Shown piece by piece: positions 1 through 12,448 of a stretch of DNA of 19,836 nucleotides. Where the stretch lies: the UHGV virus genome UHGV-0279810; one strand, given 5' to 3'. Numbering within the stretch: the first letter of the stretch is position 1; each line of letters opens with the position of its first letter. The translations under genes were made by a program, and so were the position numbers. This DNA comes from a virus. The notes below the pieces were generated by a model, which was not told the DNA's origin, ran no database searches, and was given only the letters and a program-made list of their open reading frames with translations.

Positions 1-150
1 CGAGGCAATTTGCGTAGTTCACGGTAAGCCCCCATTGTCGGCAGGCCAACCGTTTTACATTGCGGAATGCGCCACGTTGACGCCCATGCGGTAACAGCCG
101 CGGCAGTGTCTTTCAGCGGTCTGCCGGTACCGTTATCGAGCTGACCATCC
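1..150 (-). pseudogene. Inverted, diverged partial copy of a P2-type gene A segment (homologous to + strand 413-562); runs off the left window edge
   Basis: Reverse complement of 1-150 aligns base-for-base with 413-562 with about 9 mismatches, mostly at third codon positions. In the gene A reading frame on the + strand there is a TGA at 78-80, so this stretch is not a continuation of the downstream A ORF. Confidence 0.6.
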
Positions 151-179: not shown

Positions 180-1310
180 TTGCGAGTCGTCGAGCCACAC
201 CACGACGGAACGCCGCACTGGCATATGATGCTTTTTTGTAATCCACGCCAGCGTAACCAGATTATCGAAATCATGCGTCGCTATGCGCTCAAAGAGGATG
301 GCGACGAAAGAGGAGCCGCGCGAAACCGTTTTCAGGCAAAACATCTTAACCGGGGCGGTGCTGCGGGATATATCGCGAAATACATTTCAAAAAACATCGA
401 CGGCTATGCACTGGATGGTCAGCTCGATAACGACACCGGCAGGCCGCTGAAAGACACTGCAGCGGCTGTTAGCGCATGGGCGTCAACGTGGCGCATCCCG
501 CAATTTAAAACGGTTGGCCTGCCGACAATGGGGGCTTACCGTGAACTACGCAAATTGCCGCGCGGCGTCAGCATTGCTGATGAGTTTGACGAGCGCGTCG
601 AGGCTGCACGCGCCGCCGCAGACAGTGGTGATTTTGCGTTGTATATCAGCGCGCAGGGTGGGGCAAATGTCCCGCGCGATTGTCAGACTGTCAGAGTCGC
701 CCGTATCCCGTCGGATGACGTTAACGAGTACGAGGAAGAAGTCGAGAGAGTGGTCGGCATTTACGCGCCGCATCTCGGCGCGCGTCATATTCATATCACC
801 AGAACGACGGACTGGCGCATTGTGCCGAAAGTTCCGGTCGTTGAGCCTTTGACTTTAAAAAGCGGCATCGCCGCGCCTCGGAGTCCTGTCAATAACTGTG
901 GAAAACTCACCGGTGGTGATACTTCGTTACCGGTTCCCACACCTTCTGAGCACGCCGCAGCAGTGCTTAATCTGGTTGATGACGGTGTTATCGAATGGAG
1001 TGACCCGGAGGTCGTGAGGGCGCTCAGAGGTGCATTAAAACACGGTCGGAGAACGCCAAATCGTCAGCAAAGAAACGGAAGCCCGTTAAAACCACATGAA
1101 ATTGCACCATCGGCCAGACTGGCCCGGTCGGAACGAATGCAAATTACCCGTATCCGCGTTGACCTTGCTCAGAACGGTATCAGGCCGCAGCGATGGGAGC
1201 TTGAGGCGCTGGCGCGTGGCGCGACCGTAAATTATGACGGGAAAAAATTCACGTATCCGGTCGCTGATGAGTGGTTCGGATTTCAAGATGAAGTGTCATT
1301 TTTTATATAA
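180..1310 (+). CDS. A: Replication initiation endonuclease gpA (rolling-circle Rep), 3' portion only; 5' part not contiguous in this window
   Basis: ORF translation has a His-hydrophobic-His motif (PHWHMMLF) followed about 50 residues later by paired tyrosines (GYIAKYISKN), as in HUH rolling-circle initiators. Position immediately upstream of the P2 tin/old slot. Frame is open back to 81 but no ATG/GTG start; the ORF track begins at a TTG. Confidence 0.8.
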   Translation: MRVVEPHHDGTPHWHMMLFCNPRQRNQIIEIMRRYALKEDGDERGAARNRFQAKHLNRGGAAGYIAKYISKNIDGYALDGQLDNDTGRPLKDTAAAVSAWASTWRIPQFKTVGLPTMGAYRELRKLPRGVSIADEFDERVEAARAAADSGDFALYISAQGGANVPRDCQTVRVARIPSDDVNEYEEEVERVVGIYAPHLGARHIHITRTTDWRIVPKVPVVEPLTLKSGIAAPRSPVNNCGKLTGGDTSLPVPTPSEHAAAVLNLVDDGVIEWSDPEVVRALRGALKHGRRTPNRQQRNGSPLKPHEIAPSARLARSERMQITRIRVDLAQNGIRPQRWELEALARGATVNYDGKKFTYPVADEWFGFQDEVSFFI

Positions 1311-1384
1311 AAAACGTTAAAATTCAATGCAATGAAGGCATAGAGGAGGTCGCTTTAATATGTTTTATGTTTAATATTTATTAA

Positions 1385-1413
1385 TTGTTTATTTAATATA
1401 AAAAAATATTATA
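1385..1413 (+). promoter_or_regulatory. Candidate sigma70 promoter for the cargo operon (TTGTTT -N16- TATTAT)
   Basis: TTGTTT at 1385-1390 and TATTAT at 1407-1412 in the AT-rich stretch after the A stop. Many alternative AT-rich hexamers exist nearby, so this is weak. Confidence 0.2.
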
Positions 1414-1449
1414 TATAGGGAGATCAAATACAACGGTTTACTTGTTATG

Positions 1450-1726
1450 ATGCAAACATTGGTTAGTTAGTGAGATACATCGCCATCAATTGGGTAACTT
1501 TACCCGTGGAAAGTTAACGCTTTCTAACATTTACCCCGCGCAACGCCCCTGCCAGCGACAAGAGTCACAGGATCAGGCGGTATGGCGTATGGGTATTCGA
1601 ACCCTTTGGGCGACCAAGGGTTCGTGGAGCAGGGGGCTAGTGCTGTTCAATCTCATCCTTATGAGGGCGAACCATAGTGTTGGAGCAGACATATCGTTTG
1701 CACACTATGGGCATAAGGAGCAAATC
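1450..1726 (+). ncRNA. Candidate structured non-coding RNA / regulatory leader upstream of the HTH-RT module (possible retron msr-msd); boundaries not resolved
   Basis: No ribosome-binding site for the ORF-track reading frame. Hairpins read by eye: CGAACCCTT-N9-AAGGGTTCG (1598-1624) and CCATAGTGT-N21-ACACTATGG (1672-1710). Near-palindrome GGGTAA-CT-TTACCC (1492-1505) and a second TTTACCC at 1530-1536. A retron RT gene normally has its ncRNA directly upstream. Confidence 0.25.
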
Positions 1727-1882
1727 ATGAAGAATGATAAATTAACCAACGAACAGCAGGCGCAGAACAAGTCAAACCTGAAAAAGTGGGCTGGTTATGT
1801 TTGGAAATTAATCAAATGGGGTATTAGACTGTTTGATTTAGCCACTCGAGCACTGGACTACTTTGAAGGGGGTGATGAGTAA
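1727..1882 (+). CDS. Small hypothetical protein (51 aa), first gene of the cargo operon
   Basis: ATG at 1727 preceded by AAGGAG (1715-1720) at good spacing. It is the only part of ORF 1490-1882 with a ribosome-binding site. Product MKNDKLTNEQQAQNKSNLKKWAGYVWKLIKWGIRLFDLATRALDYFEGGDE has a Trp-rich amphipathic segment. Confidence 0.45.
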   Translation: MKNDKLTNEQQAQNKSNLKKWAGYVWKLIKWGIRLFDLATRALDYFEGGDE

Positions 1883-1906
1883 TGCGTCCTCCCTAGTTTC
1901 AATAGC

Positions 1907-2239
1907 ATGGAGTTGCCTATGTTACACAGAGCCCTTCGTTTAATAAGGCAATACCATAAAGAGTCATTGGTTGATTTATCAACATCTTTAGGTATTCCAA
2001 AAGAAAAAATAGTAGAACTCGAAAGTGGGGTTTGGTCGCCTACAATTGATGTTTTACAGCGTTACGCCTCCCATTTCGATATGCCGGTATCTTCTTTAGT
2101 ATTTTTTTCAGAATCGTTAGGTACGCAGGGGCGTTTATCTAAGCGTTTCCGTTTAAATTTAGCTGGTAAAGTATTAGATGTTATTGAGTGGGCGAATAAG
2201 AAAAATGAAAAGACGAATAAAACTCAAAATTTCCACTAA
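1907..2239 (+). CDS. XRE-family helix-turn-helix DNA-binding protein (about 106-110 aa)
   Basis: Translation contains a classic XRE HTH (SLVDLSTSLGIPKEKIVELESG...SPTIDVLQRYASHF). Alternative start ATG at 1919 has a better GGAG upstream. Its 3' end abuts or overlaps the RT gene. Confidence 0.7.
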   Translation: MELPMLHRALRLIRQYHKESLVDLSTSLGIPKEKIVELESGVWSPTIDVLQRYASHFDMPVSSLVFFSESLGTQGRLSKRFRLNLAGKVLDVIEWANKKNEKTNKTQNFH

Positions 2240-3155
2240 AAATAAATCTTACGATATAATTGATTCGCCGTTTTATAAAATGAGAAGTAAAAGGAAATTG
2301 GCTTCTTTATTGGGGGTTGATGTAGGGGATTTATCAACCTTAAAAAAAGATGAAGGCAATTATTCTATTTTTGAACAGTTATCTAAAAACGGAAAGCCAC
2401 GTAAGATACAAAAACCATTAGAAAAATTAGATGTGGTGCATACTCGTATTGCAAGTCTGCTATCGCGAATTACCTTGCCAGATTATCTACATTCTGGAAA
2501 GAAGGGATGTTCTAATGTTACTAATGCTAAAATCCACCTTAATAATGAAAGGTTGATGACAACCGACATCAGGGCTTTTTTTCCATCAACTACTAGAGAA
2601 ATGATATTTTCATTCTTTTTTTCTGTTATGAAGATGTCATCTGATGTTGCGGATGTATTATCGTATATATGTACTTGCTATGGGCGTTTGCCTACAGGTA
2701 GCAGGATTAGTATGCCTCTTGCATATTTTGCAAATTCAAGAATGTTCGGAGAAATACACCAACTTTGTAATAAACTACACGTAAATATGTCTGTTTATGT
2801 TGATGATCTAACTTTTTCAGGACAAAACGTTAATAGACTATTTTGTTCAGTGATTCGCAAAATAATAAATAAGCATGGTCATGTGATGCATGCGGATAAA
2901 ACAAAAATTTATAGTAGAGAAAAGCCTAAGTTGGTAACAGGTGTTATTGTTTTGGGCGGTTCTTTAAAAGTCAGGAATAAGCAGCATCTTTTAATGTCTC
3001 AAGAAATTGAATATTGGAAAATGATAAAGGATGCAGCGTGTGCAAGAGAAACTCATACTGCCAAAAAGTTATTTGGACGATTGCATTCTATGGGGGTAAT
3101 TGAACAACGTTATAGATCAAAGGTGCTTACATTAAAAGCAAGTACTGCACTTTAA
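2178..3155 (+). CDS. Retron-type reverse transcriptase (about 291-325 aa depending on start)
   Basis: RT motifs in the translation: DIRAFFPS (motif 4-like), SVYVDDLTFSG (catalytic YxDD), NAKIH (retron NAxxH motif) and KLVTGVIVLGG (retron VTG motif). Size matches retron RTs of about 300-320 aa. Possible starts at 2178, 2205 or 2280. Confidence 0.85.
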   Translation: MLLSGRIRKMKRRIKLKISTKNKSYDIIDSPFYKMRSKRKLASLLGVDVGDLSTLKKDEGNYSIFEQLSKNGKPRKIQKPLEKLDVVHTRIASLLSRITLPDYLHSGKKGCSNVTNAKIHLNNERLMTTDIRAFFPSTTREMIFSFFFSVMKMSSDVADVLSYICTCYGRLPTGSRISMPLAYFANSRMFGEIHQLCNKLHVNMSVYVDDLTFSGQNVNRLFCSVIRKIINKHGHVMHADKTKIYSREKPKLVTGVIVLGGSLKVRNKQHLLMSQEIEYWKMIKDAACARETHTAKKLFGRLHSMGVIEQRYRSKVLTLKASTAL

Positions 3156-3206
3156 TACAGGTTCCTGTAAGTGATTATATTGTTCTTAAGATACTTACTG
3201 ATGTTA

Positions 3207-3236
3207 TTTCCCCGTAGCCTTAATTTCTGCGGGGAA
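3207..3236. terminator. Hairpin between convergent RT and FRG genes (possible bidirectional terminator)
   Basis: TTTCCCCGTAG (3207-3217) pairs with CTGCGGGGAA (3227-3236) around a 9-nt loop; a T-rich run follows on the + strand only. Confidence 0.3.
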
Positions 3237-3263
3237 GTATGGAGATATTTTGGTTATGGAATG

Positions 3264-4628
3264 CTAATTTTTTAATGTGTATTTTTCTGTGATTAGTTTC
3301 ATTGTTCTTTCCAATCCTAAATATACAGTGGCATCAGTAATATTGAGCACGGCAAGTTCTTTTAAAATTTTCTTTTTGTCTCTGATGTTTATTTTTTCTG
3401 TCTTAAAGTTGTATGGTGAATTATCTGCCTGATCGTTGGATATCTCAGGAAAAACGGCGTTATTACCGAATAATAAAAAGGCACCGGATTGAGATGATAT
3501 TCTTTCATTATTTATCCTGCTTTTTACAAAAATTATCTTTTCCAAATCATCTGGATTTATTATGCTTTGAAAATATGGTTTTTCATGCTTTATGGATTCT
3601 AAGAGTTTAAGGCAAGCATGAGAGTTGTTAAAATCATTATTTCTTTCTTCGAAAGAAAGCTTGTCTTTCATGTCTTTTGATAGCATGCATAAATTAGATA
3701 TGCAACTGACAGTGTCGGAATCGAAAAATTTAATGTTCTCTCTGTGTGTTTTAAATATTATTACTTGACCATCGATATCGTTTTTGTCGGAATTTATACT
3801 ACTGCATGCAAAATAAAGTGCAATTAATGGATTTGATGTGATGTCAAGTAAGCGAGTAGGTATGCCATAATGTTGCATTCTTACAAGTTTATCAAGCATT
3901 GATGTATCATCAATGAATTCTGAGGGTCTTGCGCTCAATGCTTCTTTAACAAGGTTGATTTCATTATGTAGAAATTTATAGTTCCCATTTTCATATTTTC
4001 TGAAAAGAGATGGTGCAAGTTCATAAGATGAATCTGAATGACCCCTGTAAAAAATCTCCTCATCCATATCTGCTGTTATATGGAGAACTTTTTCAATAAA
4101 TTCTTGTAAACTATTTACGGTTAATAATGTGCTATCTTCGTCTGGGAGAGGCGCTGGACTGCTATCCACTTGTGCATTTTGGTTAATACCAAATGTCTTA
4201 AGGATATCATCTATATTTTTGTCTTTTATGGCCCAGTGTGTTCTTTTAAGGCCATAAGTTCCGAGTTCTAAACTGCTTTCAACACTTTTGGCGTCTGATA
4301 TTTTGATTTCATTGTGTGTATGGGTGATTGCAAATTGGAAGTTGATTTCTTTTCCCTTAATGTGAATATTTGAAATTCTTCCAATTCGTATGTCGACATA
4401 ATAAGGTTTTGCTCCCTCTATTTGATAAGCTTCACTCATGAATATTGTTGGGAGTTTTTCAAGATAAGATAGTACATTGCTGCTTAATGGGGATAGTTTT
4501 TTGCGAATACCATCGGAGGTGTTTTCAAACATTCGTGATAAAAGAAATGAGAATTCTCCATTATTTTGGCTGAATGGTTTCCAGTGGTCGTAGTGGTCGG
4601 GAAAACCACCCATAATTAAATTAATCAT
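3264..4628 (-). CDS. FRG-domain protein (454 aa), candidate defence protein; N- and C-terminal regions of unknown function
   Basis: Central region carries the FRG-domain signature: FYRGHSDSSYELAPSLFR ... MQHYGIPTRLLDITSNPLIALYFA. AT-rich, lies in the P2 tin/old slot, convergent to the RT operon. Start ATG at 4628 with a weak AGGT ribosome-binding site. Confidence 0.65.
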   Translation of the reverse strand: MINLIMGGFPDHYDHWKPFSQNNGEFSFLLSRMFENTSDGIRKKLSPLSSNVLSYLEKLPTIFMSEAYQIEGAKPYYVDIRIGRISNIHIKGKEINFQFAITHTHNEIKISDAKSVESSLELGTYGLKRTHWAIKDKNIDDILKTFGINQNAQVDSSPAPLPDEDSTLLTVNSLQEFIEKVLHITADMDEEIFYRGHSDSSYELAPSLFRKYENGNYKFLHNEINLVKEALSARPSEFIDDTSMLDKLVRMQHYGIPTRLLDITSNPLIALYFACSSINSDKNDIDGQVIIFKTHRENIKFFDSDTVSCISNLCMLSKDMKDKLSFEERNNDFNNSHACLKLLESIKHEKPYFQSIINPDDLEKIIFVKSRINNERISSQSGAFLLFGNNAVFPEISNDQADNSPYNFKTEKINIRDKKKILKELAVLNITDATVYLGLERTMKLITEKYTLKN

Positions 4629-4933: not shown

Positions 4934-4952
4934 GCGCCCTATGAAGCGGGCG

Positions 4953-4971
4953 GGCGAGGCGGGGAAAGCAC
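4953..4971. other. cos: P2-type cohesive end site (cos), 19-nt GGCGAGGCGGGGAAAGCAC
   Basis: Matches the 19-nt cohesive-end sequence of phage P2 as I recall it, and sits at the expected place between the tin/old slot and gene Q. Confidence 0.7.
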
Positions 4972-5113
4972 TGCGCGCTGGCGGTGGTGCGGATTTTATT
5001 TTTTCAGCGTCTGAGCGCGTCGTGAAGGCGTTTACTTGGCCTGCTAGGGCGTTGGTGTGTCTGCGGGGTGTTTTGTGCGGTGGTGAGCGTGTGAGGGCGT
5101 GATGACGGGGTGT

Positions 5114-5135
5114 AAAAAAGCCGCCCGCAGGCGGC
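5114..5135 (-). terminator. Rho-independent terminator after Q (minus strand)
   Basis: GCCGCC-CGCA-GGCGGC hairpin (5120-5135) followed on the minus strand by TTTTTT (complement of 5114-5119), just downstream of the Q stop. Confidence 0.55.
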
Positions 5136-5140
5136 GATGT

Positions 5141-6175
5141 TCAGCCGTTGTCAGTGTCCAGTGAGTAGTTTTTAAAGCGGATGACCTCCTGGCCGAGCCA
5201 GCCGTTTATTTCCCGAATCCTGTCCTGTAACGGGATTAGCTCATTGCGGACAAAGACCTTTGCCACTTTCTCAATATCACCCAGTGACCCGACGTTCTCC
5301 GGCTTGCCACCCATCAACTGAAAGGGGATGCGGTGTGCGTCCAGCAGGTCAGCGGCGCTGGCTTTTTTGATATTAAAAAAATCGTCCTTCGTCGCCACTT
5401 CACTGAGCGGGATAATTTTAATGCCGTCGGCTTTCCCCTGCGGGGCATAGAGAAACAGGTTTTTAAAGTTGTTGCGGCCTTTCGACTTCACCATGTTTTC
5501 GCGAAGCATTTCGATATCGTTGCGATCCTGCACGGCATCGGTGACGTACATGATGTATCCGGCATGTGCGCCATTTTCGTAATACTTGCGGCGGAACAGC
5601 GTGGCCGACTCATTCAGCCAGGCAGAGTTAAGGGCGCTGAGATATTCCGGCAGGCCGTACAGCTCCTGATTAATATCCGGCTCCAGCAGGTGAAACACGG
5701 AGCCGGGCGCGAAGGCTGTCGGCTCGTTGAAGGACGGCACCCACCAGTAAACATCCTCCTCCACGCCACGGCGGGTATATTTTGCCGGTGAGGTTTCCAG
5801 TCTGATGACCTTACCGGTGGTGCTGTAACGCTTTTCCAGAAACGCATTACCGAACACCAGAAAATCCAGCACAAAGCGGCTGAAATCCTGCTGGGAAAGC
5901 CACGGGTGCGGGATAAACGTTGAAGCCAGAATATTACGTTTGACGTAAATCGGTGAGCTGTGATGCACGGCAGCACGCAGGCTTTTTGCCAGACCGGTAA
6001 AGCTGACCGGCGGCTCATACCATCTGCCGTTACTGATACATTCGACGTAATCCAGAATGTCACGGCGGTCGAGCACCGGCACCGGCTCACCAAAGGTGAA
6101 TGCCTCCATTTTCGGGGCGCTGGCGGTCATTTTTTTTGCCGCAGGTTGCGGTGTTTTCCCTTTTTTCTTGCTCAT
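5141..6175 (-). CDS. Q: Portal protein gpQ
   Basis: 344-aa product with Lys-rich N-terminus MSKKKGKTPQPAAKK; P2 order cos-Q-P on the minus strand; ATGA start/stop overlap with P. Confidence 0.9.
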   Translation of the reverse strand: MSKKKGKTPQPAAKKMTASAPKMEAFTFGEPVPVLDRRDILDYVECISNGRWYEPPVSFTGLAKSLRAAVHHSSPIYVKRNILASTFIPHPWLSQQDFSRFVLDFLVFGNAFLEKRYSTTGKVIRLETSPAKYTRRGVEEDVYWWVPSFNEPTAFAPGSVFHLLEPDINQELYGLPEYLSALNSAWLNESATLFRRKYYENGAHAGYIMYVTDAVQDRNDIEMLRENMVKSKGRNNFKNLFLYAPQGKADGIKIIPLSEVATKDDFFNIKKASAADLLDAHRIPFQLMGGKPENVGSLGDIEKVAKVFVRNELIPLQDRIREINGWLGQEVIRFKNYSLDTDNG

Positions 6176-7947
6176 CAGTAAAACTCCAGAATGGTGGATG
6201 TCAGCGGGGTGCTGATACCGGCGGTGAGTGGCTCATTTAACAGGGCGTGCATGGTCGCCCAGGCGAGGTCGGCGTGGCTGGCTTCCTCGCTGCGGCTGGC
6301 CTCATAAGTGGCGCTGCGTCCGCTGCTGGTCATGGTCTTGCGGATAGCCATAAACGAGCTGGTGATGTCGGTGGCGCTGACGTCATATTCCAGACAGCCA
6401 CGGCGGATAACGTCTTTTGCCTTGAGCACCATTGCGGTTTTCATTTCCGGTGTGTAGCGGATATCGCGCGCGGCGGGATAGAACGAGCGCACGAGCTGGA
6501 ACACGCCGACACCGAGGCCGGTGGCATCAATACCGATGTATTCGACGTTGTATTTTTCGGTGAGTTTGCGGATGGATTCAGCCTGAGTGGCAAAGTCCAT
6601 GCCTTTCCACTGGTGACGCTCAAGTATTCTGAATTTGCCACCGGCCACCACCGGCGGTGCCAGCACCACGCATCCGGCACTGTCGCCACGGTGTGACGGG
6701 TCGTAACCAATCCATACCGGGCGGGAGCCGAACGGATTGGCGGCAAAGGGTGCATAGTCTTCCCATTCTTCCAGCGTGTCGACCATGCAGCGTTGCAGCT
6801 CCTCGAACGGGAACACCGACGCCTTGTCGTCAACAAATTCACACATGAACAGGTTTTTAAAATCGTCGGCGCTGTTTTCACGTTTGAGCTGCTCAATGTC
6901 GAACAGTGTGCAGCCGCCTTTCAGGGCGTCCTCAATGGTGACAATCTGCCGCCACTGGCCGTCCGCACAGAGAAGCCCGCTGGCAAGGGCGTTATGACTG
7001 ACGTCGATTTCCACACGTTCGGCGGCGCTGGCACGTCCCCGGTTGAACAGTTCACCTGACCAGAACGGGTAGGCGTCGTGCGCCAGCGTGGACGGGGTGG
7101 AGAAATAGGTCGAGCGCAGGTGACTCTGTGAGGCCATACCTGATGCCACCTTACGCAGTACCTGAAAATTCGGGATCCAGAAAATCTCATCGACGTACAG
7201 GTCGCCGTTATGGCTCTGCGCGGTGTTGGAGTTGGTGCCGAGAAAAATCAGTTTTGCGCCGTTATTGCCCAGGACAATCGGGTCACCGGTAAGGTCAACG
7301 TCCACCAGACGGGCAAAGGCGATGATGTATTCGCGGAACACATACGCCTGCGTTTTACTGGCCGACAGAAAAATCTGGTTATGACCGGTTTTCAGGGCGC
7401 GCAGCAGTGCCTCGCGGGAAAAATAAAACGTCGCGCCAATCTGGCGGGATTTCAGGATATCGCGGATGCGGTGCTCAAGCCCGGCGCGATACCAGTGCAA
7501 CTGATAGTCGAAAGACTGCTCAAAGAAAATCTGCTCCAGCTTTTCGATGGCTTCGTCACTGAAAAAATTCTTTTTCGGTTTGCGACGCCCGCCTTTGTTG
7601 CGGTTAGCGACGTTCGGATTAAGGTCTGCCTCGTTGCCGGTCTGGCTGTAGCGGTTTACCCGTGCCAGTCGTTCAATCTGGCGTCCCAGCAGGTCAATTT
7701 CCTTGAAGTCACCGCCGGTTTTCTGCGGTTTGATGATGAGCTGGGTCAGCCGCGCTTCCAGGCTCATTTCGACACGGCTGATGGGGGCAACGCTGTCCCA
7801 GCCGTCGCGCTGTTTCCAGCTCTGCACCGTCGGGCGTTTCATCTGCAACATGGCGGCAATCTGCGGCACGGAAAACCCCTGCCAGTACAGCAGCGCCGCC
7901 TGACGACGCGGGTCGTGTAAAAGAGTGGTGTCTGTGGTGATGGTCAT
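6175..7947 (-). CDS. P: Terminase large (ATPase) subunit gpP
   Basis: 590-aa product from MTITTDTTLLHDPRRQAALLYWQGF; start moved 10 codons inside the ORF-track start (7977) to the ATG at 7947, which has GAGGT upstream. Confidence 0.9.
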   Translation of the reverse strand: MTITTDTTLLHDPRRQAALLYWQGFSVPQIAAMLQMKRPTVQSWKQRDGWDSVAPISRVEMSLEARLTQLIIKPQKTGGDFKEIDLLGRQIERLARVNRYSQTGNEADLNPNVANRNKGGRRKPKKNFFSDEAIEKLEQIFFEQSFDYQLHWYRAGLEHRIRDILKSRQIGATFYFSREALLRALKTGHNQIFLSASKTQAYVFREYIIAFARLVDVDLTGDPIVLGNNGAKLIFLGTNSNTAQSHNGDLYVDEIFWIPNFQVLRKVASGMASQSHLRSTYFSTPSTLAHDAYPFWSGELFNRGRASAAERVEIDVSHNALASGLLCADGQWRQIVTIEDALKGGCTLFDIEQLKRENSADDFKNLFMCEFVDDKASVFPFEELQRCMVDTLEEWEDYAPFAANPFGSRPVWIGYDPSHRGDSAGCVVLAPPVVAGGKFRILERHQWKGMDFATQAESIRKLTEKYNVEYIGIDATGLGVGVFQLVRSFYPAARDIRYTPEMKTAMVLKAKDVIRRGCLEYDVSATDITSSFMAIRKTMTSSGRSATYEASRSEEASHADLAWATMHALLNEPLTAGISTPLTSTILEFY

Positions 7948-7977
7948 GAATACCTCGCCGTGATGAATACACGGCAA

Positions 7978-8120
7978 GGCTACTGAGTCGCGCCCCGCGA
8001 TTCGCTAAGGTGCTGTTGTGTCAGTGATAAGCCATCCGGGACTGATGGCGGAGGATGCGTATCGTCGGGAAACTGATGCCGACATGTGACTCCTCTAATC
8101 ACTATTCAGGACTCCTGACA
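7978..8120. promoter_or_regulatory. Divergent late-promoter region between P and O (expected Ogr-activated promoters)
   Basis: Intergenic region between divergently transcribed P and O, as in P2. I could not place an exact TGT-N12-ACA element by eye. Confidence 0.4.
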
Positions 8121-8975
8121 ATGGCAAAAAAAGTCTCAAAATTCTTTCGTATCGGCGTTGAGGGTGACACCTGTGACGGGCGTGTCATCAGTGCGCAGGA
8201 TATTCAGGAAATGGCCGAAACCTTTGACCCGCGAGTCTATGGTTGCCGCATTAACCTGGAACATCTGCGCGGCGTCCTGCCTGACGGTATTTTTAAGCGT
8301 TATGGCGATGTGGTCGAACTGAAGGCCGAAAAGATTGACGATGATTCGGCGCTGAAAGGCAAATGGGCGCTGTTTGCGAAAATCACCCCGACCGATGACC
8401 TTATCGCGATGAACAAGGCCGCGCAGAAGGTCTATACCTCAATGGAAATTCAGCCGAACTTTGCCAATACCGGCAAATGTTATCTGGTGGGTCTGGCCGT
8501 CACCGATGACCCGGCAAGCCTCGGCACGGAATACCTGGAATTCTGCCGCACGGCAAAACACAACCCCCTGAACCGCTTCAAATTAAGCCCTGAAAACCTG
8601 ATTTCAGTGGCAACGCCCGTTGAGCTGGAATTTGAAGACCTGCCTGAAACCGTGTTCACCGCCCTGACCGAAAAGGTGAAGTCCATTTTTGGCCGCAAAC
8701 AGGCCAGCGATGACGCCCGTCTGAATGACGTGCATGAAGCGGTGACCGCTGTTGCTGAACATGTGCAGGAAAAACTGAGCGCCACTGAGCAGCGCCTCGC
8801 TGAGATGGAAACCGCTTTTTCCGCACTTAAGCAGGATGTGACTGACAGGGCGGATGAAACCAGCCAGGCATTCACCCGCCTGAAAAACAGTCTCGACCAC
8901 ACCGAAAGTCTGACCCAGCAGCGCCGCAGCAAGGCCACCGGTGGTGGCGGTGACGCCCTGATGACGAACTGCTGA
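8121..8975 (+). CDS. O: Capsid scaffolding protein gpO
   Basis: 284 aa from MAKKVSKFFRIGVEGDTCDG; internal start chosen over ORF-track start 8055; position after P. Confidence 0.9.
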   Translation: MAKKVSKFFRIGVEGDTCDGRVISAQDIQEMAETFDPRVYGCRINLEHLRGVLPDGIFKRYGDVVELKAEKIDDDSALKGKWALFAKITPTDDLIAMNKAAQKVYTSMEIQPNFANTGKCYLVGLAVTDDPASLGTEYLEFCRTAKHNPLNRFKLSPENLISVATPVELEFEDLPETVFTALTEKVKSIFGRKQASDDARLNDVHEAVTAVAEHVQEKLSATEQRLAEMETAFSALKQDVTDRADETSQAFTRLKNSLDHTESLTQQRRSKATGGGGDALMTNC

Positions 8976-9033
8976 CCGGCGTCAGTCAGTCCGGGAAAAC
9001 CTTCACGATTAACCCTTAATTTCAGGAAAAACT

Positions 9034-10107
9034 ATGCGCCAGGAAACCCGCTTTAAATTTAATGCCTACCTGTCCCGTGTTGCCGAACTGAACGGCATCG
9101 ACGCCGGTGATGTGTCGAAAAAATTCACCGTTGAACCGTCGGTCACCCAGACCCTGATGAACACCATGCAGGAGTCCTCTGACTTTCTGACCCGCATCAA
9201 CATTGTGCCGGTCAGCGAAATGAAAGGGGAAAAAATTGGCATCGGTGTCACCGGCTCCATCGCCAGCACCACCGACACCGCCGGTGGCACCGAGCGTCAG
9301 CCGAAGGACTTCTCGAAGCTGGCGTCAAACAAGTACGAATGCGACCAGATTAACTTCGATTTTTATATCCGCTACAAAACGCTGGACCTGTGGGCGCGTT
9401 ATCAGGATTTCCAGCTCCGTGTCCGTAACGCCATTATCAAACGCCAGTCCCTTGATTTAATCATGGCCGGTTTTAACGGCGTGAGGCGTGCCGGAACCTC
9501 TGACCGCAGCAGCAATCCGATGCTGCAGGATGTGGCGGTCGGCTGGCTGCAGAAATACCGCAATGAAGCCCCGGCGCGCGTGATGAGCAAGGTCGCTGAC
9601 GAGGAAGGTCGCACCACCTCTGAGGTCATCCGCGTGGGTAAGGGCGGTGATTATGCCAGCCTTGACGCACTGGTGATGGATGCGACCAACAACCTGATTG
9701 AGCCGTGGTATCAGGAAGACCCTGACCTTGTGGTGATTGTGGGACGTCAGCTACTGGCGGACAAGTATTTTCCCATCGTCAACAAGGAGCAGGACAACAG
9801 CGAAATGCTGGCCGCTGACGTCATCATCAGCCAGAAACGCATCGGTAACCTGCCGGCGGTACGCGTCCCGTACTTCCCGGCGGATGCGATGCTCATCACA
9901 AAGCTGGAAAACCTGTCCATCTACTACATGGATGACAGCCATCGCCGCGTGATTGAGGAAAACCCGAAACTCGACCGCGTGGAGAACTACGAGTCAATGA
10001 ACATTGATTACGTGGTGGAAGACTACGCCGCCGGTTGTCTGGTGGAAAAAATTAAGGTCGGTGATTTCTCCACACTGGCTAAAGCGACCGCAGAGCCGGG
10101 AGCGTAA
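9034..10107 (+). CDS. N: Major capsid protein gpN
   Basis: 357 aa; AGGA ribosome-binding site; P2 order O-N-M. Confidence 0.92.
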   Translation: MRQETRFKFNAYLSRVAELNGIDAGDVSKKFTVEPSVTQTLMNTMQESSDFLTRINIVPVSEMKGEKIGIGVTGSIASTTDTAGGTERQPKDFSKLASNKYECDQINFDFYIRYKTLDLWARYQDFQLRVRNAIIKRQSLDLIMAGFNGVRRAGTSDRSSNPMLQDVAVGWLQKYRNEAPARVMSKVADEEGRTTSEVIRVGKGGDYASLDALVMDATNNLIEPWYQEDPDLVVIVGRQLLADKYFPIVNKEQDNSEMLAADVIISQKRIGNLPAVRVPYFPADAMLITKLENLSIYYMDDSHRRVIEENPKLDRVENYESMNIDYVVEDYAAGCLVEKIKVGDFSTLAKATAEPGA

Positions 10108-10110
10108 CCG

Positions 10111-10854
10111 ATGACGAGTCCCGCACAGCGCCACATGATGCGGGTCTCGGCAGCGATGACCGCGCAGCGGGAAGCCGCCCCGCTGCGACATGCAACTGTC
10201 TATGAGCAGATGCTGGTTAAGCTCGCCGCAGACCAGCGCACACTGAAAGCGATTTATTCAAAAGAGCTGAAGGCCGCGAAAAAACGCGAACTGCTGCCGT
10301 TCTGGTTGCCGTGGGTGAACGGCGTGCTGGAGCAGGGCAAAGGTGCACAGGATGACATTCTGATGACGGTCATGCTGTGGCGTCTGGATACCGGCGATAT
10401 TGCCGGTGCGCTGGAGATTGCCCGTTATGCCCTGAAGTACGGTCTGACCATGCCGGGTAAACACCGCCGTACCCCGCCGTACATGTTCACCGAGGAGGTA
10501 GCGCTTGCGGCCATGCGCGCTCACGCTGCCGGTGAGTCTGTGGATACCCGCCTGCTGACGGAGACCCTTGAACTGACCGCCACGGCTGACATGCCTGATG
10601 AAGTGCGCGCAAAGCTGCACAAAATCACCGGTCTGTTTCTGCGTGACGGTGGTGATGCCGCCGGTGCGCTGGCTCACCTGCAACGTGCGACACAGCTCGA
10701 CTGTCAGGCAGGCGTCAAAAAAGAGATTGAACGACTGGAGCGGGAGCTGAAACCGAAGCCGGAGCCGCAGCCCAAAGCGGCCACCCGCGCCCCGCGTAAG
10801 ATCCGGAGCGTGACACCGGCAAAACGTGGACGCCCGAAAAAGAAAGCCAGTTAA
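10111..10854 (+). CDS. M: Terminase small (endonuclease) subunit gpM
   Basis: 247 aa with basic C-terminal tail (RGRPKKKAS); starts 4 nt after N stop. Confidence 0.9.
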   Translation: MTSPAQRHMMRVSAAMTAQREAAPLRHATVYEQMLVKLAADQRTLKAIYSKELKAAKKRELLPFWLPWVNGVLEQGKGAQDDILMTVMLWRLDTGDIAGALEIARYALKYGLTMPGKHRRTPPYMFTEEVALAAMRAHAAGESVDTRLLTETLELTATADMPDEVRAKLHKITGLFLRDGGDAAGALAHLQRATQLDCQAGVKKEIERLERELKPKPEPQPKAATRAPRKIRSVTPAKRGRPKKKAS

Positions 10855-10953
10855 CAACCGAATGCGCCCCGCGCCAGGGCGGCACGCCGGTCAGTGAGGG
10901 TGAATCACCTGACACTGCACCGGCGTCCACCGCCCGACTTTTCAGAGGTAGTC

Positions 10954-11463
10954 ATGATGACGCTGATTATTCCGCGAAAGGAGGCTCCCGTGTCCGGTGA
11001 GGGTACGGTGGTCATCCCGCAACCGGCAGGCGACGAGCCGGTGATTAAAAACACGTTCTTTTTTCCCGATATCGACCCGAAGCGCGTCCGGGAACGTATG
11101 CGCCTTGAGCAGACCGTCGCCCCCGCCCGTCTGCGTGAGGCCATCAAGTCAGGCATGGCGGAGACGAATGCGGAGCTGTACGAGTACCGCGAACAGAAAA
11201 TTGCCGCCGGTTTTACGTGTCTGGCGGACGTCCCGGCGGACGACATCGACGGTGAAAGCATCAAAGTTTTTTACTACGAGCGCGCCGTGTGTGCGATGGC
11301 GACCGCGTCGCTTTATGAACGTTATCGCGGTGTGGATGCCAGTGCGAAAGGCGACAAGAAGGCCGACAGCATTGACAGCACCATTGATGAGCTGTGGCGG
11401 GATATGCGCTGGGCAGTGGCGCGCATCCAGGGCAAGCCGCGCTGCATCGTGAGTCAAATCTGA
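10954..11463 (+). CDS. L: Head completion/stabilisation protein gpL
   Basis: 169 aa from MMTLIIPRKEAP; GAGG ribosome-binding site; internal start chosen over ORF-track 10894. Confidence 0.88.
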   Translation: MMTLIIPRKEAPVSGEGTVVIPQPAGDEPVIKNTFFFPDIDPKRVRERMRLEQTVAPARLREAIKSGMAETNAELYEYREQKIAAGFTCLADVPADDIDGESIKVFYYERAVCAMATASLYERYRGVDASAKGDKKADSIDSTIDELWRDMRWAVARIQGKPRCIVSQI

Positions 11464-11666
11464 TGAAGACCTTTGCGCTACAGGGCGACACGCTCGACGC
11501 CATTTGTGTCCGGTATTACGGGCGCACTGAGGGCGTGGTTGAGACCGTGCTCGCCGCAAATCCGGGACTGGCTGAACTGGGTGCGGTGCTGCCACACGGC
11601 ACCGCCGTCGAACTGCCCGACGTTCAGACCGCGCCCGTGGCTGAAACTGTCAATCTGTGGGAGTAA
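11463..11666 (+). CDS. X: Tail protein gpX (67 aa)
   Basis: MKTFALQGDTLDAICVRYYGR...; ATGA overlap with L stop; ORF-track N-terminal extension (11394) rejected. Confidence 0.85.
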   Translation: MKTFALQGDTLDAICVRYYGRTEGVVETVLAANPGLAELGAVLPHGTAVELPDVQTAPVAETVNLWE

Positions 11667-11669
11667 CGC

Positions 11670-11951
11670 ATGACAGCAGAAGAAAAAAGCGTCCTGTCGC
11701 TTTTCATGATTGGGGTGCTGATTGTTGTCGGCAAGGTGCTTGCCGGTGGTGAACCCATCACCCCGCGTCTGTTTATCGGGCGCATGTTGCTCGGTGGTTT
11801 TGTCTCGATGGTTGCCGGTGTTGTTCTGGTGCAGTTTCCTGACCTGTCACTGCCTGCGGTGTGCGGCATCGGCTCCATGCTGGGTATCGCCGGTTATCAG
11901 GTGATTGAGATTGCCATTCAGCGCCGCTTTAAGGGCAGGGGGAAACCGTAA
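11670..11951 (+). CDS. Y: Holin gpY
   Basis: 93 aa with hydrophobic transmembrane stretches, immediately before the lysozyme gene. Confidence 0.88.
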   Translation: MTAEEKSVLSLFMIGVLIVVGKVLAGGEPITPRLFIGRMLLGGFVSMVAGVVLVQFPDLSLPAVCGIGSMLGIAGYQVIEIAIQRRFKGRGKP

Positions 11952-12448
11952 TGCCGGTTATTAACACGCATCAGAATATCGCCGCCTTTCTCGACATGCT
12001 GGCCGTGTCCGAAGGGACGGCAAACCATCCGCTGACGAAAAACCGGGGCTATGACGTGATAGTCACCGGACTGGACGGGAAGCCGGAAATTTTCACCGAC
12101 TACAGTGACCACCCGTTCGCGCATGGCCGACCGGCGAAGGTGTTTAACCGTCGCGGTGAAAAGTCCACGGCATCCGGTCGCTATCAGCAGCTTTACCTGT
12201 TCTGGCCGCACTACCGCAAACAGCTTGCCCTGCCGGATTTCAGTCCGTTGTCACAGGACAGGCTCGCCATTCAGTTGATCCGCGAACGCGGTGCACTGGA
12301 TGACATCCGGGCGGGACGCATTGAGCGCGCTATTTCACGCTGTCGCAATATCTGGGCGTCCCTGCCGGGAGCCGGTTACGGTCAGCGTGAGCATTCACTG
12401 GAAAAACTGGTCACCGTCTGGCGTACCGCTGGCGGCGTACCGGCTTAA
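11951..12448 (+). CDS. K: Endolysin (lysozyme) gpK
   Basis: 165 aa; start overlaps Y stop; P2 lysis cassette order. Confidence 0.9.
   Translation: MPVINTHQNIAAFLDMLAVSEGTANHPLTKNRGYDVIVTGLDGKPEIFTDYSDHPFAHGRPAKVFNRRGEKSTASGRYQQLYLFWPHYRKQLALPDFSPLSQDRLAIQLIRERGALDDIRAGRIERAISRCRNIWASLPGAGYGQREHSLEKLVTVWRTAGGVPA

What the first reader, a model, noticed from the sequence alone, without database searches (positions are those of the whole stretch)
1727..1882. Small 51-aa ORF with a strong ribosome-binding site as the first gene of the retron-like operon
ATG 1727 follows a canonical AAGGAG, and the peptide has a Trp/Lys-rich amphipathic segment (WAGYVWKLIKWGIRLF) typical of membrane-active small proteins. 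It is co-directional and tightly spaced with the HTH and RT genes. It could be a small effector or toxin, or a leader peptide. The ORF-track version (1490-1882, 130 aa) is likely an artefactual extension over the non-coding leader.
Basis: partly seen in the sequence, partly recalled or inferred. Interest (0 to 1): 0.4.

Follow-up and report, generated by a model that had tools for sequence, protein, structure and literature searches.

The report
Small toxin gene of Type VI retron
The 51-codon ORF is a real gene, the small toxic effector protein ("SP") of a Type VI retron anti-phage system carried by a P2-like phage, and it lies inside the retron's structured RNA with its ribosome-binding site paired to a conserved anti-RBS; this gene family was described in 2025-2026 preprints, so the finding is correct but not new.

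Summary
Observation confirmed. ATG 1727 to TAA 1882 encodes 51 aa. AAGGAG (1715-1720) lies 6 nt upstream. The peptide carries the quoted amphipathic Trp/Lys helix.

The locus is a Type VI retron with the gene order SP, HTH, RT (PADLOC HTH_VI E 7e-30; RT_VI E 1e-105). It sits in the cargo hotspot of a P2-like phage and is 100% identical to Escherichia virus P2_2H1.

The ORF keeps exactly 51 codons in relatives down to 55% amino-acid identity. A similar small ORF with an RBS precedes the HTH gene in most of the 72 loci where an HTH was found. An iterated profile links it to the SP of Retron-Vpa2, which was shown experimentally to be the toxic effector.

The 130-aa version is an artefact, because its upstream part is frameshifted or closed in relatives.

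- The region is both coding and part of the retron RNA (the published "hyRNA").
- The strong RBS pairs with an anti-SD at 1656-1663. This pairing, and two long-range helices that clamp the ORF, co-vary across 22 diverse loci (0 of 20,000 permutations each).

Most likely mechanism: a translationally gated toxin, as in Vpa2. Main rival: HTH neutralises it after translation, as in Sen3.

Novelty is low.

The parts
1488..1925 (+). Structured retron transcript, the 'hyRNA': msr-msd-like leader, SP coding sequence and 3' clamp. Both ends are approximate and were not mapped.
   Evidence: MFE -161.2 kcal/mol, z -5.7 against shuffles. The consensus structure of 11 relatives has 97.4% of cells paired and 19 pairs changed on both sides, against 9.5 +/- 1.9 in shuffles (0/500) and 2-7 in slid controls. 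RNA motifs are shared with the Vpa2 locus. Homology with the non-prophage copy L005 begins at about 1471.
1490..1726 (+). Upstream extension of the 130-aa ORF-track version. It is not coding; it is the retron non-coding RNA.
   Evidence: The frame is not conserved. Indels of 1 nt and about 17-20 nt occur in relatives. The phage record NC_049386.1 nevertheless annotates it as gp41.
1532..1596 (+). Long variable stem, the putative reverse-transcription template (msd). Assigned by analogy with Vpa2 only.
   Evidence: It is paired in the MFE and consensus structures and is the most indel-rich part of the leader. In Vpa2 the msDNA maps to the long stem-loop of the first arm. This assignment is an inference.
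1598..1624 (+). 9-bp hairpin whose loop holds copy 1 of the 7-nt direct repeat (GGGCGAC, 1608-1614).
   Evidence: An upstream copy of the repeat core was found in 21 of 24 loci, in 18 of them in the loop of a 7-10-bp hairpin at the same position.
1625..1636 (+). 5' strand of helix C (UGGAGCAGGGGG), which pairs with 1889-1901 just after the SP stop codon.
   Evidence: helix 7, 99.2% paired. Cognate duplexes average -15.75 kcal/mol against -12.64 for non-cognate, with 0/20000 permutations reaching the observed value.
1641..1648 (+). 5' strand of helix A (UGCUGUUC), which pairs with SP codons 9-11.
   Evidence: Cognate -16.39 against non-cognate -11.64 kcal/mol, 0/20000 permutations. Pair probability 0.81-1.0 in the 1488-1925 ensemble.
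1656..1663 (+). Anti-Shine-Dalgarno strand (UCCUUAUG).
   Evidence: Perfect 8-bp complement of 1712-1719. Invariant in close relatives. Across 22 diverse loci the cognate duplex averages -12.05 against -6.55 kcal/mol for non-cognate, 0/20000 permutations.
1665..1671 (+). Copy 2 of the 7-nt direct repeat (GGGCGAA), immediately 3' of the anti-SD.
   Evidence: The two copies change together in all four loci with a non-consensus core: GGACGAA in Vpa2, TGGTGAC in L017, GTGCGAA in L018, TGGTGAT in L020.
1672..1710 (+). Hairpin between the anti-SD and the SD (the 'riboregulator' hairpin).
   Evidence: 9-bp perfect stem. Compensatory changes occur in helices 10 and 11.
1712..1720 (+). Shine-Dalgarno region (CAUAAGGAG). 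AAGGAG is 1715-1720; 1712-1719 pairs with the anti-SD.
   Evidence: The AUG sits in a small stem (P unpaired 0.01-0.02 for A and U).
1727..1882 (+). SP gene, 51 aa: the small toxic effector protein of the retron. This is the finding.
1751..1758 (+). 3' strand of helix A (GAACAGCA), which is SP codons E9-Q10-Q11.
   Evidence: Compensatory examples: GAUCAGCA in Vpa2, GACCAACA in L007, UUUUGGCAG in L014.
1889..1901 (+). 3' strand of helix C (CUCCCUAGUUUCA), starting 7 nt after the SP stop codon.
1919..2239 (+). HTH gene (Cro/C1-type, HTH_VI), 106 aa. GGAG at 1909-1912 serves as its RBS.
   Evidence: PADLOC HTH_VI E 7.2e-30, with the match starting at residue 5 of the 1907 version. The N-terminus MLHRALR matches Vpa2 MIHRALR, including R7. 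RefSeq uses equivalent starts.
2205..3155 (+). Retron reverse transcriptase (RT_VI), 316 aa. The YVDD catalytic motif is at 2796-2807.
   Evidence: PADLOC RT_VI E 1.1e-105 and Pfam RVT_1. It is 54% identical to the V. parahaemolyticus RT P0088, the RT of the Vpa2-type locus L091.

Best explanation
ORF 1727-1882 encodes the SP, the small toxic effector of a Type VI retron (gene order SP, HTH, RT) carried as cargo by a P2-like phage.

The gene lies inside the retron's own structured RNA. The leader (about 1488-1726) holds the reverse-transcription template. Three helices tie the leader to the ORF:
- The anti-SD (1656-1663) pairs with the SD (1712-1719).
- Helix A (1641-1648) pairs with SP codons 9-11 (1751-1758).
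- Helix C (1625-1636) pairs with 1889-1901, just after the stop codon.

In the resting lysogen the RBS and start codon are therefore masked and little SP is made. On infection by a phage that brings recombination functions of the lambda Red type, RT-made msDNA accumulates. The msDNA carries the complement of repeat copy 1 (1608-1614). It is proposed to anneal to repeat copy 2 (1665-1671) next to the anti-SD and so free the RBS. SP is then translated. Its amphipathic C-terminal helix poisons the cell by an unknown target (oligomerisation and/or membrane action), which aborts the infection.

Shown here:
- The gene is real and conserved.
- It belongs to the Type VI retron SP family.
- The three helices and the repeat pair co-vary across the family.

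Taken from experiments on homologues (Vpa2, Eco12) and inferred for this locus:
- Toxicity of the SP.
- Translational repression.
- msDNA-dependent derepression.
- Triggering by Red-type functions.
For: Family assignment: PADLOC HTH_VI E 7e-30 and RT_VI E 1e-105.

Gene reality:
- The ORF keeps 51 codons in 10 relatives down to 55% amino-acid identity, with dN/dS 0.14-0.64. The other frames carry 3-8 stops.
- Ten database homologues share 65-100% identity; 7 of them are exactly 51 aa.
- RefSeq calls the same CDS.
- PHROGs holds it as the 51-aa family phrog_15287.
- The exact protein occurs on at least 1000 contigs.

Positional and architectural conservation: an RBS-led ORF, mostly 45-65 aa, with a basic middle, a hydrophobic or Trp-rich C-terminal helix and an acidic tail, lies directly upstream of the HTH gene in most of the 72 loci where an HTH was found.

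Link to the tested toxin:
- Locus L091 carries a 55-aa SP with K15, I39, F43 and F45, and an HTH with R7. These are the residues mutated in Retron-Vpa2 (paper read).
- A profile seeded on the window's clade reaches this SP at E 1.8e-3 (Z = 1e6) in the second iteration. Twenty-nine of 43 SP candidates converge into one family.
- The RTs are 54% identical.

RNA embedding:
- z -5.7 for the single-sequence fold.
- 19 pairs with compensatory change against 9.5 in shuffles, 0/500.
- Cognate against non-cognate duplex tests over 22 diverse loci gave SD helix -12.05 vs -6.55, helix A -16.39 vs -11.64 and helix C -15.75 vs -12.64 kcal/mol. Each had 0/20000 permutations reaching the observed value.
- The repeat pair co-varies in all four loci with a non-consensus core.
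- dS in SP is 0.11-0.6, against 0.6-1.07 in HTH and at least 1.5 in RT for the same genome pairs. This is the signature of a sequence that is both coding and structural RNA.

Literature:
- In Vpa2, SP alone is toxic, K15* abolishes the toxicity of the triggered retron, deleting the non-coding hyRNA is toxic, and SP translation needs msDNA and Red Beta+Exo.
- An E. coli Type VI retron, Retron-Eco12, defends against lambda-vir.
Against: - No experiment exists for this locus.
- Direct BLASTP of the window SP against the Vpa2 SP is weak (E 0.012 for a single comparison). The profile link is modest, and the alignment places Vpa2 F43 and F45 in an insertion absent here.
- Single-sequence thermodynamics are ambiguous for the SD helix. 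The anti-SD:SD pair probability is only 0.34-0.48 in the 1488-1925 ensemble, and the long-range helices vanish if the transcript is modelled out to 2100.
- For individual loci the best SD duplex is usually no better than in shuffles. The support is comparative only.
- A second characterised Type VI retron, Sen3, makes SP constitutively and controls it after translation through HTH. The gating step may therefore differ between lineages.
- Co-variation of the two repeat copies would equally fit a protein that binds both copies.
Confidence: 0.7

Rival explanations
1. SP is the toxin but is translated constitutively. HTH neutralises it protein-to-protein, as a post-translational toxin-antitoxin pair like Retron-Sen3. 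Inhibition of RecBCD would be the trigger, and the RNA structure would serve reverse transcription or complex assembly rather than translational control.
For: Sen3 shows this behaviour. Its SP-HTH module works without ncRNA or RT, SP is detectable at rest, and HTH is essential for viability. Here SP and HTH are adjacent and always co-occur. The SD is consensus-strong, and the single-sequence ensemble leaves it about 50% unpaired. In Vpa2 an HTH mutant is also toxic.
Against: This SP is of the short Vpa2 type at 51 aa. It lacks the roughly 25-residue N-terminal extension and the extended C-terminal helix that define the 79-aa cl2075 (Sen3) SPs. The RT groups with Vibrio RTs, including the Vpa2-type one, at 54-57% identity. 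The anti-SD:SD pairing and the repeat pair co-vary across this lineage, which is hard to explain without a role in RBS access.
Confidence: 0.2
2. The ORF is not a functional protein gene. The region would be only the third arm of the retron RNA, or a leader peptide whose act of translation, not its product, tunes HTH and RT expression.
For: The coding sequence is under RNA-structure selection. There are 9 compensatory pairs inside it (helices 14, 16 and 18), and its synonymous rate is depressed. dN/dS reaches 0.64 in one comparison, and no synonymous change separates the window from L002. There is no Pfam, NCBIfam or PADLOC family for it.
Against: An open frame of about 50 codons with ATG and an SD is kept in dozens of loci whose DNA is no longer alignable, with the same charge and hydrophobicity layout. 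The length is fixed at 51 codons down to 55% identity with saturated dS. The homologous protein is toxic on its own, and point mutations in its hydrophobic core reduce toxicity. A frameshift in the Sen3 SP abolishes defence.
Confidence: 0.04
3. SP is a membrane-inserting small toxin of the type I toxin-antitoxin or holin-like kind (Hok, TisB, Ldr style) that kills by depolarising the inner membrane.
For: It is a small, Trp/Lys-rich helix with a strong amphipathic moment (0.71). In Vpa2, hydrophobicity of the C-terminal helix is needed for toxicity. Locking translation by 5'-3' RNA pairing resembles hok mRNA (own knowledge).
Against: There is no stretch hydrophobic enough for a transmembrane helix: the best 19-residue Kyte-Doolittle mean is 0.61, with K27, K30, R34, D37 and R41 inside the helix. 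No antisense RNA partner is evident. The authors of both studies state that the toxic mechanism is unknown and point instead to oligomerisation and to HTH binding.
Confidence: 0.25

Closest known systems
Retron-Vpa2 SP and hyRNA (Vibrio parahaemolyticus; Zhang et al., bioRxiv 10.1101/2025.10.22.683967)
   Same: - Same SP, HTH, RT order.
- RT 54% identical.
- Short SP (51 vs 55 aa) with a QQ motif near the N-terminus, a basic middle, a hydrophobic or Trp-rich C-terminal helix and a (D/E)GGD(E/T) tail.
- Same RNA layout: a hairpin carrying repeat copy 1, then helix C, helix A, anti-SD, repeat copy 2, a hairpin, SD, AUG, and a 3' clamp after the stop codon.

   Different: - SP identity is only about 30% over local segments.
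- The Vpa2 C-terminal helix has a WFNF insertion that holds two of the three mutated core residues.
- The repeat is GGGCGA here and GGACGA in Vpa2.
- The RT motif is YVDD here and YADD in Vpa2.
- The host and carrier differ: a P2-like coliphage here, a chromosomal island next to hipA and rpoD in Vibrio.
- Nothing has been tested for this locus.
Retron-Eco12 (E. coli Type VI retron tested in the same preprint)
   Same: It is an E. coli Type VI retron, described as phylogenetically related to Vpa2. It has an SP that the authors modelled, shows no detectable msDNA at rest, and defends against lambda-vir.
   Different: Its sequence or accession is not in the text or supplements available here. I therefore cannot say whether this window is Eco12 or one of the other E. 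coli variants, which match the window at about 84%, 78% and 75% DNA identity.
Retron-Sen3 SP (cl2075 lineage; Garcia-Rodriguez et al., bioRxiv 10.64898/2026.04.27.721009)
   Same: It is also a Type VI SP, HTH, RT system with a small helical toxin that has a hydrophobic C-terminal core. Its SP gene is also embedded in a conserved RNA, with a long-range inverted repeat whose 3' arm lies just after the SP stop codon, and the SP RBS is predicted to be paired.
   Different: The Sen3 SP is 79 aa with an N-terminal extension of about 25 residues and an extended amphipathic C-terminal helix. It has negligible sequence identity to Vpa2-type SPs. ssDNA and SP are made constitutively, and control is post-translational through HTH.
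hok/sok-type type I toxin mRNAs (own knowledge)
   Same: A small toxic peptide whose mRNA is kept translationally silent by pairing that masks the SD, including a 5'-3' long-range clamp.
   Different: No transmembrane segment and no antisense RNA. According to the Vpa2 work, the activating nucleic acid is a reverse-transcribed DNA.
P2 old / tin cargo genes at the same phage locus (own knowledge)
   Same: They occupy the same variable slot between replication gene A and cos/portal gene Q of P2-like phages, and they exclude other phages. P2 Old, like these retrons, responds to lambda functions that act on RecBCD.
   Different: The proteins and mechanism are unrelated. Relatives at this slot carry different cargo: the FRG/PDC-S15 gene here, and DinI-like and other ORFs elsewhere.

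Membership tests
Type VI retron (Mestre et al. 2020 classification, as summarised) | Reverse transcriptase of the Type VI clade | tested here: met
   PADLOC RT_VI E 1.1e-105, covering 278 of 279 profile positions. The next best match, RT_III-A, scores 3.8e-45. Pfam RVT_1 also matches.
Type VI retron (Mestre et al. 2020 classification, as summarised) | Cro/C1-type HTH gene upstream of, or overlapping, the RT gene | tested here: met
   PADLOC HTH_VI E 7.2e-30. HTH at 1919-2239 overlaps RT at 2205-3155 by 35 nt.
Type VI retron (Mestre et al. 2020 classification, as summarised) | RT-dependent ssDNA (msDNA) made from the upstream ncRNA | not testable with these tools
   Only the RNA homology to the Vpa2 template region is shown. 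Rfam has no model for it.
Type VI retron small protein (SP) toxin, Vpa2-type | Small ORF (about 45-65 aa) with its own RBS directly upstream of the HTH gene, as first gene of the operon | tested here: met
   ORF 1727-1882, with AAGGAG 6 nt upstream and 36 nt before the HTH start. The same arrangement is seen across the family.
Type VI retron small protein (SP) toxin, Vpa2-type | Sequence homology to the experimentally tested Vpa2 SP | tested here: inconclusive
   BLASTP E 0.012 for a single comparison. The iterated HMM reaches the Vpa2 SP at E 1.8e-3 (Z = 1e6) and unites 29 SPs. This supports homology but is not strong for peptides this short.
Type VI retron small protein (SP) toxin, Vpa2-type | Helical protein with a hydrophobic C-terminal helix | tested here: met
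   AlphaFold2 gives a helix over residues 3-47, with pLDDT 87-89 over residues 21-40. The hydrophobic face is formed by W26, I29, I33, F36, L43 and neighbours, with moment 0.71.
Type VI retron small protein (SP) toxin, Vpa2-type | Toxic when expressed alone; required for defence | not testable with these tools
   Known only for Vpa2 and Sen3.
hyRNA (hybrid RNA of Retron-Vpa2-like retrons) | SP RBS and start codon sequestered in stems | tested here: met
   The 8-bp anti-SD:SD helix is invariant in close relatives and co-varies across 22 loci. The AUG is paired in a small stem. Caveat: single-sequence pair probability is only 0.34-0.48.
hyRNA (hybrid RNA of Retron-Vpa2-like retrons) | Sequence 3' of the SP gene folds back onto the first arm (inverted repeats) | tested here: met
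   Helix C, 1625-1636 with 1889-1901: 99.2% paired. Cognate beats non-cognate with 0/20000 permutations.
hyRNA (hybrid RNA of Retron-Vpa2-like retrons) | Conserved 7-nt direct repeats, one in an msd loop and one in the riboregulator | tested here: met
   GGGCGAC at 1608-1614 in a hairpin loop, and GGGCGAA at 1665-1671. The feature is described in the paper.
hyRNA (hybrid RNA of Retron-Vpa2-like retrons) | One abundant contiguous transcript spanning msr-msd and SP | not testable with these tools
   This needs RNA-seq. The promoter scan found no consensus site upstream.
cl2075 (Sen3-type) SP | SP of about 79 aa with a roughly 25-residue N-terminal extension and an extended amphipathic C-terminal helix | tested here: not met
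   The window SP is 51 aa with no such extension. The features are as described. No Sen3 sequence was available for direct comparison.
Type I toxin-antitoxin membrane toxins (Hok/TisB/Ldr-like) | Hydrophobic transmembrane helix | tested here: not met
   The best 19-residue Kyte-Doolittle mean is 0.61, and five charged residues lie within the helix.

The most novel reading that the evidence does not exclude
The two copies of the 7-nt repeat change together from lineage to lineage: GGGCGA, GGACGA, GGTGA, GTGCGA. One reading is that each Type VI retron has a private 'key and lock'. The reverse-transcribed DNA copy of the msd loop would act as a sequence-specific DNA riboregulator. It would anneal next to the anti-SD and switch on translation of the toxin encoded on the same RNA. 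In this P2-like phage that switch would occupy the old/tin cargo slot as the sensor of invading phages' recombination functions. The idea was proposed for Vpa2. The co-variation seen here would be independent comparative support, and it implies that the switch can be reprogrammed.
Probability: 0.35. Interest if true: 0.55.

Novelty: already known. Interest (0 to 1): 0.25.

Why it matters
The result turns a 'hypothetical protein' into a named part of an anti-phage system. That protein occurs on at least 1000 enterobacterial contigs and is mis-annotated as 130 aa in the phage reference record.

It shows that the published hyRNA design holds in an E. coli phage-borne retron and across 22 diverse loci. 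In that design the toxin gene is embedded in the retron RNA with a masked RBS and a repeat pair.

For annotation pipelines it is a warning in two directions. A strong RBS can be deliberately masked, and 'non-coding RNA' and 'coding' are not exclusive.

It adds no new kind of biology beyond the 2025-2026 preprints.

Tried and rejected
- Rfam (E up to 1) found nothing in 1200-3400.
- Pfam, PADLOC and NCBIfam have no family for the 51-aa protein. Only PHROGs does, with unknown function.
- Direct BLASTP to the Vpa2 SP is weak, so I used an iterated profile.
- Testing the SD helix locus by locus against shuffled upstream sequence was uninformative: median z -1.47, and 12 of 37 loci at p<=0.05. An 8-bp duplex is easy to find in 100 nt. 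I replaced this with a position-defined cognate against non-cognate test.
- My first window for helix C missed the G-run and gave no signal (1210/20000). The corrected window gave 0/20000.
- The MAFFT alignment of distant loci put the SD helix out of register, so I did not count pairs on it.
- The consensus promoter scan found no sigma-70 site upstream of the RNA. The transcription start is left open.
- The 8-nt repeat TGGAGCAG (1625-1632 and 1681-1688) is not conserved in relatives. I dismissed it as lineage-specific or chance.
- Identity with Retron-Eco12 could not be established from the paper or its supplements.
- A fold search with the single-helix model was not run, because such a model gives meaningless matches.
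- The priming guanosine and the msr/msd borders were not determined.
Full report
**1. What is in the sequence.**
ATG 1727 to TAA 1882 encodes 51 aa: MKNDKLTNEQQAQNKSNLKKWAGYVWKLIKWGIRLFDLATRALDYFEGGDE. AAGGAG lies at 1715-1720 with a 6-nt spacer. The quoted Trp/Lys-rich stretch is residues 21-36.

The peptide is predicted to be one long helix over residues 3-47, with mean pLDDT 77.6 and 87-89 over residues 21-40. Its helical hydrophobic moment is 0.71 for residues 27-44. The most hydrophobic 19-residue window averages only 0.61 on the Kyte-Doolittle scale and contains five charged residues. It is therefore amphipathic, not a transmembrane segment.

Downstream on the same strand lie two genes:
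- An HTH gene. ATG 1919 is preferred over 1907, because it is preceded by GGAG at 1909-1912, the PADLOC match starts at residue 5 of the longer form, and it gives the N-terminus MLHRALR as in relatives.
- A reverse transcriptase gene at 2205-3155, overlapping HTH by 35 nt.

**2. What the locus is.**
PADLOC models identify HTH_VI (E 7.2e-30) and RT_VI (E 1.1e-105), so this is a Type VI retron.

The surroundings are a P2-like phage. The 3' part of replication gene A lies upstream (Phage_GPA). The portal and terminase genes lie downstream on the other strand. Window 1300-3200 and 4961-12000 are 100% identical to Escherichia virus P2_2H1, NC_049386.1.

The retron and a neighbouring FRG-domain gene (PADLOC PDC-S15) fill the variable slot between gene A and cos/portal. 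From my own knowledge, this is the slot that holds tin and old in P2. In relatives it holds other cargo next to the retron.

One hundred of 5,426 complete E. coli genomes carry the retron. Sixty match at 99% or more, 28 at about 84% and 12 at about 75-79%.

**3. Is the small ORF a gene?**
Evidence for coding:
- The 156-nt frame is open in all ten diverged copies examined, down to 55% amino-acid identity with saturated synonymous divergence. The other two frames carry 3-8 stops. dN/dS is 0.14-0.64.
- Database homologues share 65-100% identity, and seven of the ten are exactly 51 aa.
- RefSeq calls this CDS in every E. coli version.
- PHROGs has a 51-position family for it, phrog_15287.
- The exact protein occurs on at least 1000 contigs.
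- In 72 Type VI loci fetched through the RT and found to have an HTH, a small ORF with an SD-like motif sits directly before the HTH gene in most of them. It is mostly 45-65 aa. It always shows the same layout: a polar N-terminus, a Lys/Arg-rich middle, a hydrophobic and often Trp-rich helix, and an acidic tail. This holds even where the DNA no longer aligns.

Evidence against the 130-aa form (TTG 1490), and the 97-aa form:
- In the Klebsiella, Enterobacter and Serratia copies the upstream part is read in a different frame because of a 1-nt indel. In L005 and L006 it is closed by stops.
- The leader has indels of about 17-20 nt.
- The phage reference record nevertheless annotates the long form as gp41.

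**4. What the protein is.**
Two preprints describe exactly this gene class.

*Zhang et al.* (10.1101/2025.10.22.683967) studied Retron-Vpa2:
- The small protein (SP) is the toxic effector.
- It is transcribed as part of a roughly 470-nt hybrid RNA that also contains the msr-msd.
- Its RBS and start codon are sequestered.
- Its translation needs RT-made msDNA, which accumulates when phage recombination proteins are present.
- K15* abolishes the toxicity of the triggered retron, and I39R/F43R/F45R reduce it.

*Garcia-Rodriguez et al.* (10.64898/2026.04.27.721009) studied Retron-Sen3. Its 79-aa SP is made constitutively and held in check by HTH.

I recovered a V. parahaemolyticus locus, L091. Its 55-aa SP has K15, I39, F43 and F45, and its HTH has R7, so it is Vpa2 or a near-identical relative. 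Its RT is 54% identical to the window's.

Direct BLASTP between the two SPs is weak (E 0.012). A profile seeded on the window's clade picks up Vibrio and Marinomonas SPs in the first round. It reaches the Vpa2 SP at E 1.8e-3 (Z = 1e6) in the second round, and 29 of 43 SPs converge into one family. Shared landmarks are the QQ motif near the N-terminus and the F(D/E)GGD(E/T) tail.

The window SP is not of the Sen3 (cl2075) type. It lacks the N-terminal extension that defines that type.

**5. The ORF is also RNA.**
The segment 1480-1925 folds far better than shuffles (-161.2 kcal/mol, z -5.7). On 11 relatives the consensus structure has 97.4% of cells paired. Nineteen pairs are changed on both sides, against 9.5 +/- 1.9 in shuffles (0/500) and 2-7 when partners are slid. 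Nine of those pairs lie inside the coding sequence.

Three helices tie the ORF to the leader:
- Anti-SD UCCUUAUG (1656-1663) pairs with CAUAAGGA (1712-1719).
- Helix A, UGCUGUUC (1641-1648), pairs with GAACAGCA (1751-1758), which is codons E9-Q10-Q11.
- Helix C, UGGAGCAGGGGG (1625-1636), pairs with CUCCCUAGUUUCA (1889-1901), starting 7 nt after the stop codon.

These helices never vary among close relatives, so I tested them on 22 diverse loci. I defined each strand by position only and compared each locus's own duplex with all mismatched combinations.

| Helix | Cognate (kcal/mol) | Non-cognate (kcal/mol) | Permutations reaching observed |
|---|---|---|---|
| Anti-SD:SD | -12.05 | -6.55 | 0/20000 |
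| Helix A | -16.39 | -11.64 | 0/20000 |
| Helix C | -15.75 | -12.64 | 0/20000 |

Compensatory examples are visible by eye. Helix A is GCUGAUC:GAUCAGC in Vpa2 and CUGCCAAAAAC:GUUUUUGGCAG in L014. The SD helix is CUCCUCUAGU:ACUAGAGGAG in L017.

The 7-nt direct repeat described by Zhang et al. is present:
- Copy 1, GGGCGAC (1608-1614), is in the loop of hairpin 1598-1624.
- Copy 2, GGGCGAA (1665-1671), abuts the anti-SD.
- An upstream copy of the core was found in 21 of 24 loci, and the two copies change together in all four loci with a non-consensus core.

The evolutionary signature fits a dual-use sequence. For the same genome pairs, dS is 0.11-0.6 in SP, 0.6-1.07 in HTH and at least 1.5 in RT. 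dN is higher in SP. The conserved N-terminal 'EQQ' is therefore constrained at least partly as RNA.

**6. Caveats.**
- Thermodynamics on this one sequence do not settle the SD helix. Its pair probability is 0.34-0.48 in the 1488-1925 ensemble. If the transcript is modelled to 2100 the long-range helices are lost.
- The transcript ends are unmapped, and no consensus promoter was found.
- The support for masking of the RBS is comparative.
- Toxicity, msDNA production and triggering are taken from Vpa2, Eco12 and Sen3, not from this locus.
- Whether this window is Retron-Eco12 itself cannot be decided, because no sequence or accession for Eco12 is available to me.

**7. Mechanism, ranked.**
- *Most likely (about 0.7 for the whole picture).* SP is the toxic effector (I put about 0.85 on that part). 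The hyRNA fold keeps it translationally silent, and msDNA releases it after a phage trigger, as in Vpa2 (about 0.55-0.6 for that step).
- *Main rival (0.2).* Sen3-like constitutive synthesis with HTH as a protein antitoxin.
- *An RNA-only element or a mere leader peptide is very unlikely (0.04).*
- *How SP kills is open.* The amphipathic helix allows membrane action (about 0.25 for a type I-toxin-like mode), but there is no transmembrane segment, and the Vpa2 data point to N-terminal self-association.

**8. Verdict.**
Two corrections apply: the ORF is coding and part of the retron RNA at once, and its RBS is masked rather than simply strong. The thing is a member of an already described class, so novelty and interest are low. 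The comparative tests of the three helices and of the repeat pair are a modest independent confirmation of the published model.

Noticed in passing
window 1-150 versus 413-562: The first 150 bases are a 95% inverted copy of 413-562, which lies inside replication gene A. They do not match the contiguous gene A sequence of phage P2_2H1 or of the O157 prophage, so the gene A frame is broken before 180. This looks like a fold-back or assembly artefact at the contig end, or a rearrangement.
   Followed up: partly
window 3264-4628, minus strand: A 454-aa protein with an FRG domain (Pfam E 2.4e-21) matches the PADLOC candidate defence family PDC-S15 (E 7e-98) and phrog_4962. It sits beside the retron in the same P2 cargo slot. 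Related prophages carry different genes at this position.
   Followed up: partly
window 1490-1882 = NC_049386.1 29205-29597: The reference record of Escherichia virus P2_2H1 annotates the 130-aa long form (gp41), which runs over the retron non-coding RNA. RefSeq E. coli genomes annotate the 51-aa form. PHROGs holds both a 51-position family (phrog_15287) and a 97-position family (phrog_5826).
   Followed up: yes
window about 4950-4975: The sequence GGCGAGGCGGGGAAAGCAC lies here. From memory this is the P2 cohesive-end (cos) sequence. The linear P2_2H1 record starts about 30 bases upstream of window 4961, which fits. The retron and the FRG gene are therefore the last genes before cos.
   Followed up: no
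window 1608-1614 and 1665-1671; loci L017, L018, L020, L091: The two copies of the hyRNA 7-nt direct repeat change together between lineages: GGGCGA, GGACGA, GGTGA, GTGCGA. This fits either annealing of the msDNA to copy 2 or one protein reading both copies.
   Followed up: partly
window 1727-1882 versus 1919-3155: The synonymous rate in the SP gene is 3-5 times lower than in the adjacent HTH and RT genes for the same genome pairs, while the non-synonymous rate is higher.
   Followed up: yes
L005 (E. coli C5, NZ_CP010122.1 2219256-2220685): A diverged copy of the same SP, HTH, RT retron sits outside any P2 prophage, near yeiP/yeiQ and next to a DUF4236 gene. The module therefore moves independently of the phage.
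   Followed up: no
window 1625-1632 and 1681-1688: The 8-nt direct repeat TGGAGCAG occurs in the helix C strand and in the loop of the riboregulator hairpin. The second copy is not conserved in relatives, so this is probably chance.
   Followed up: yes
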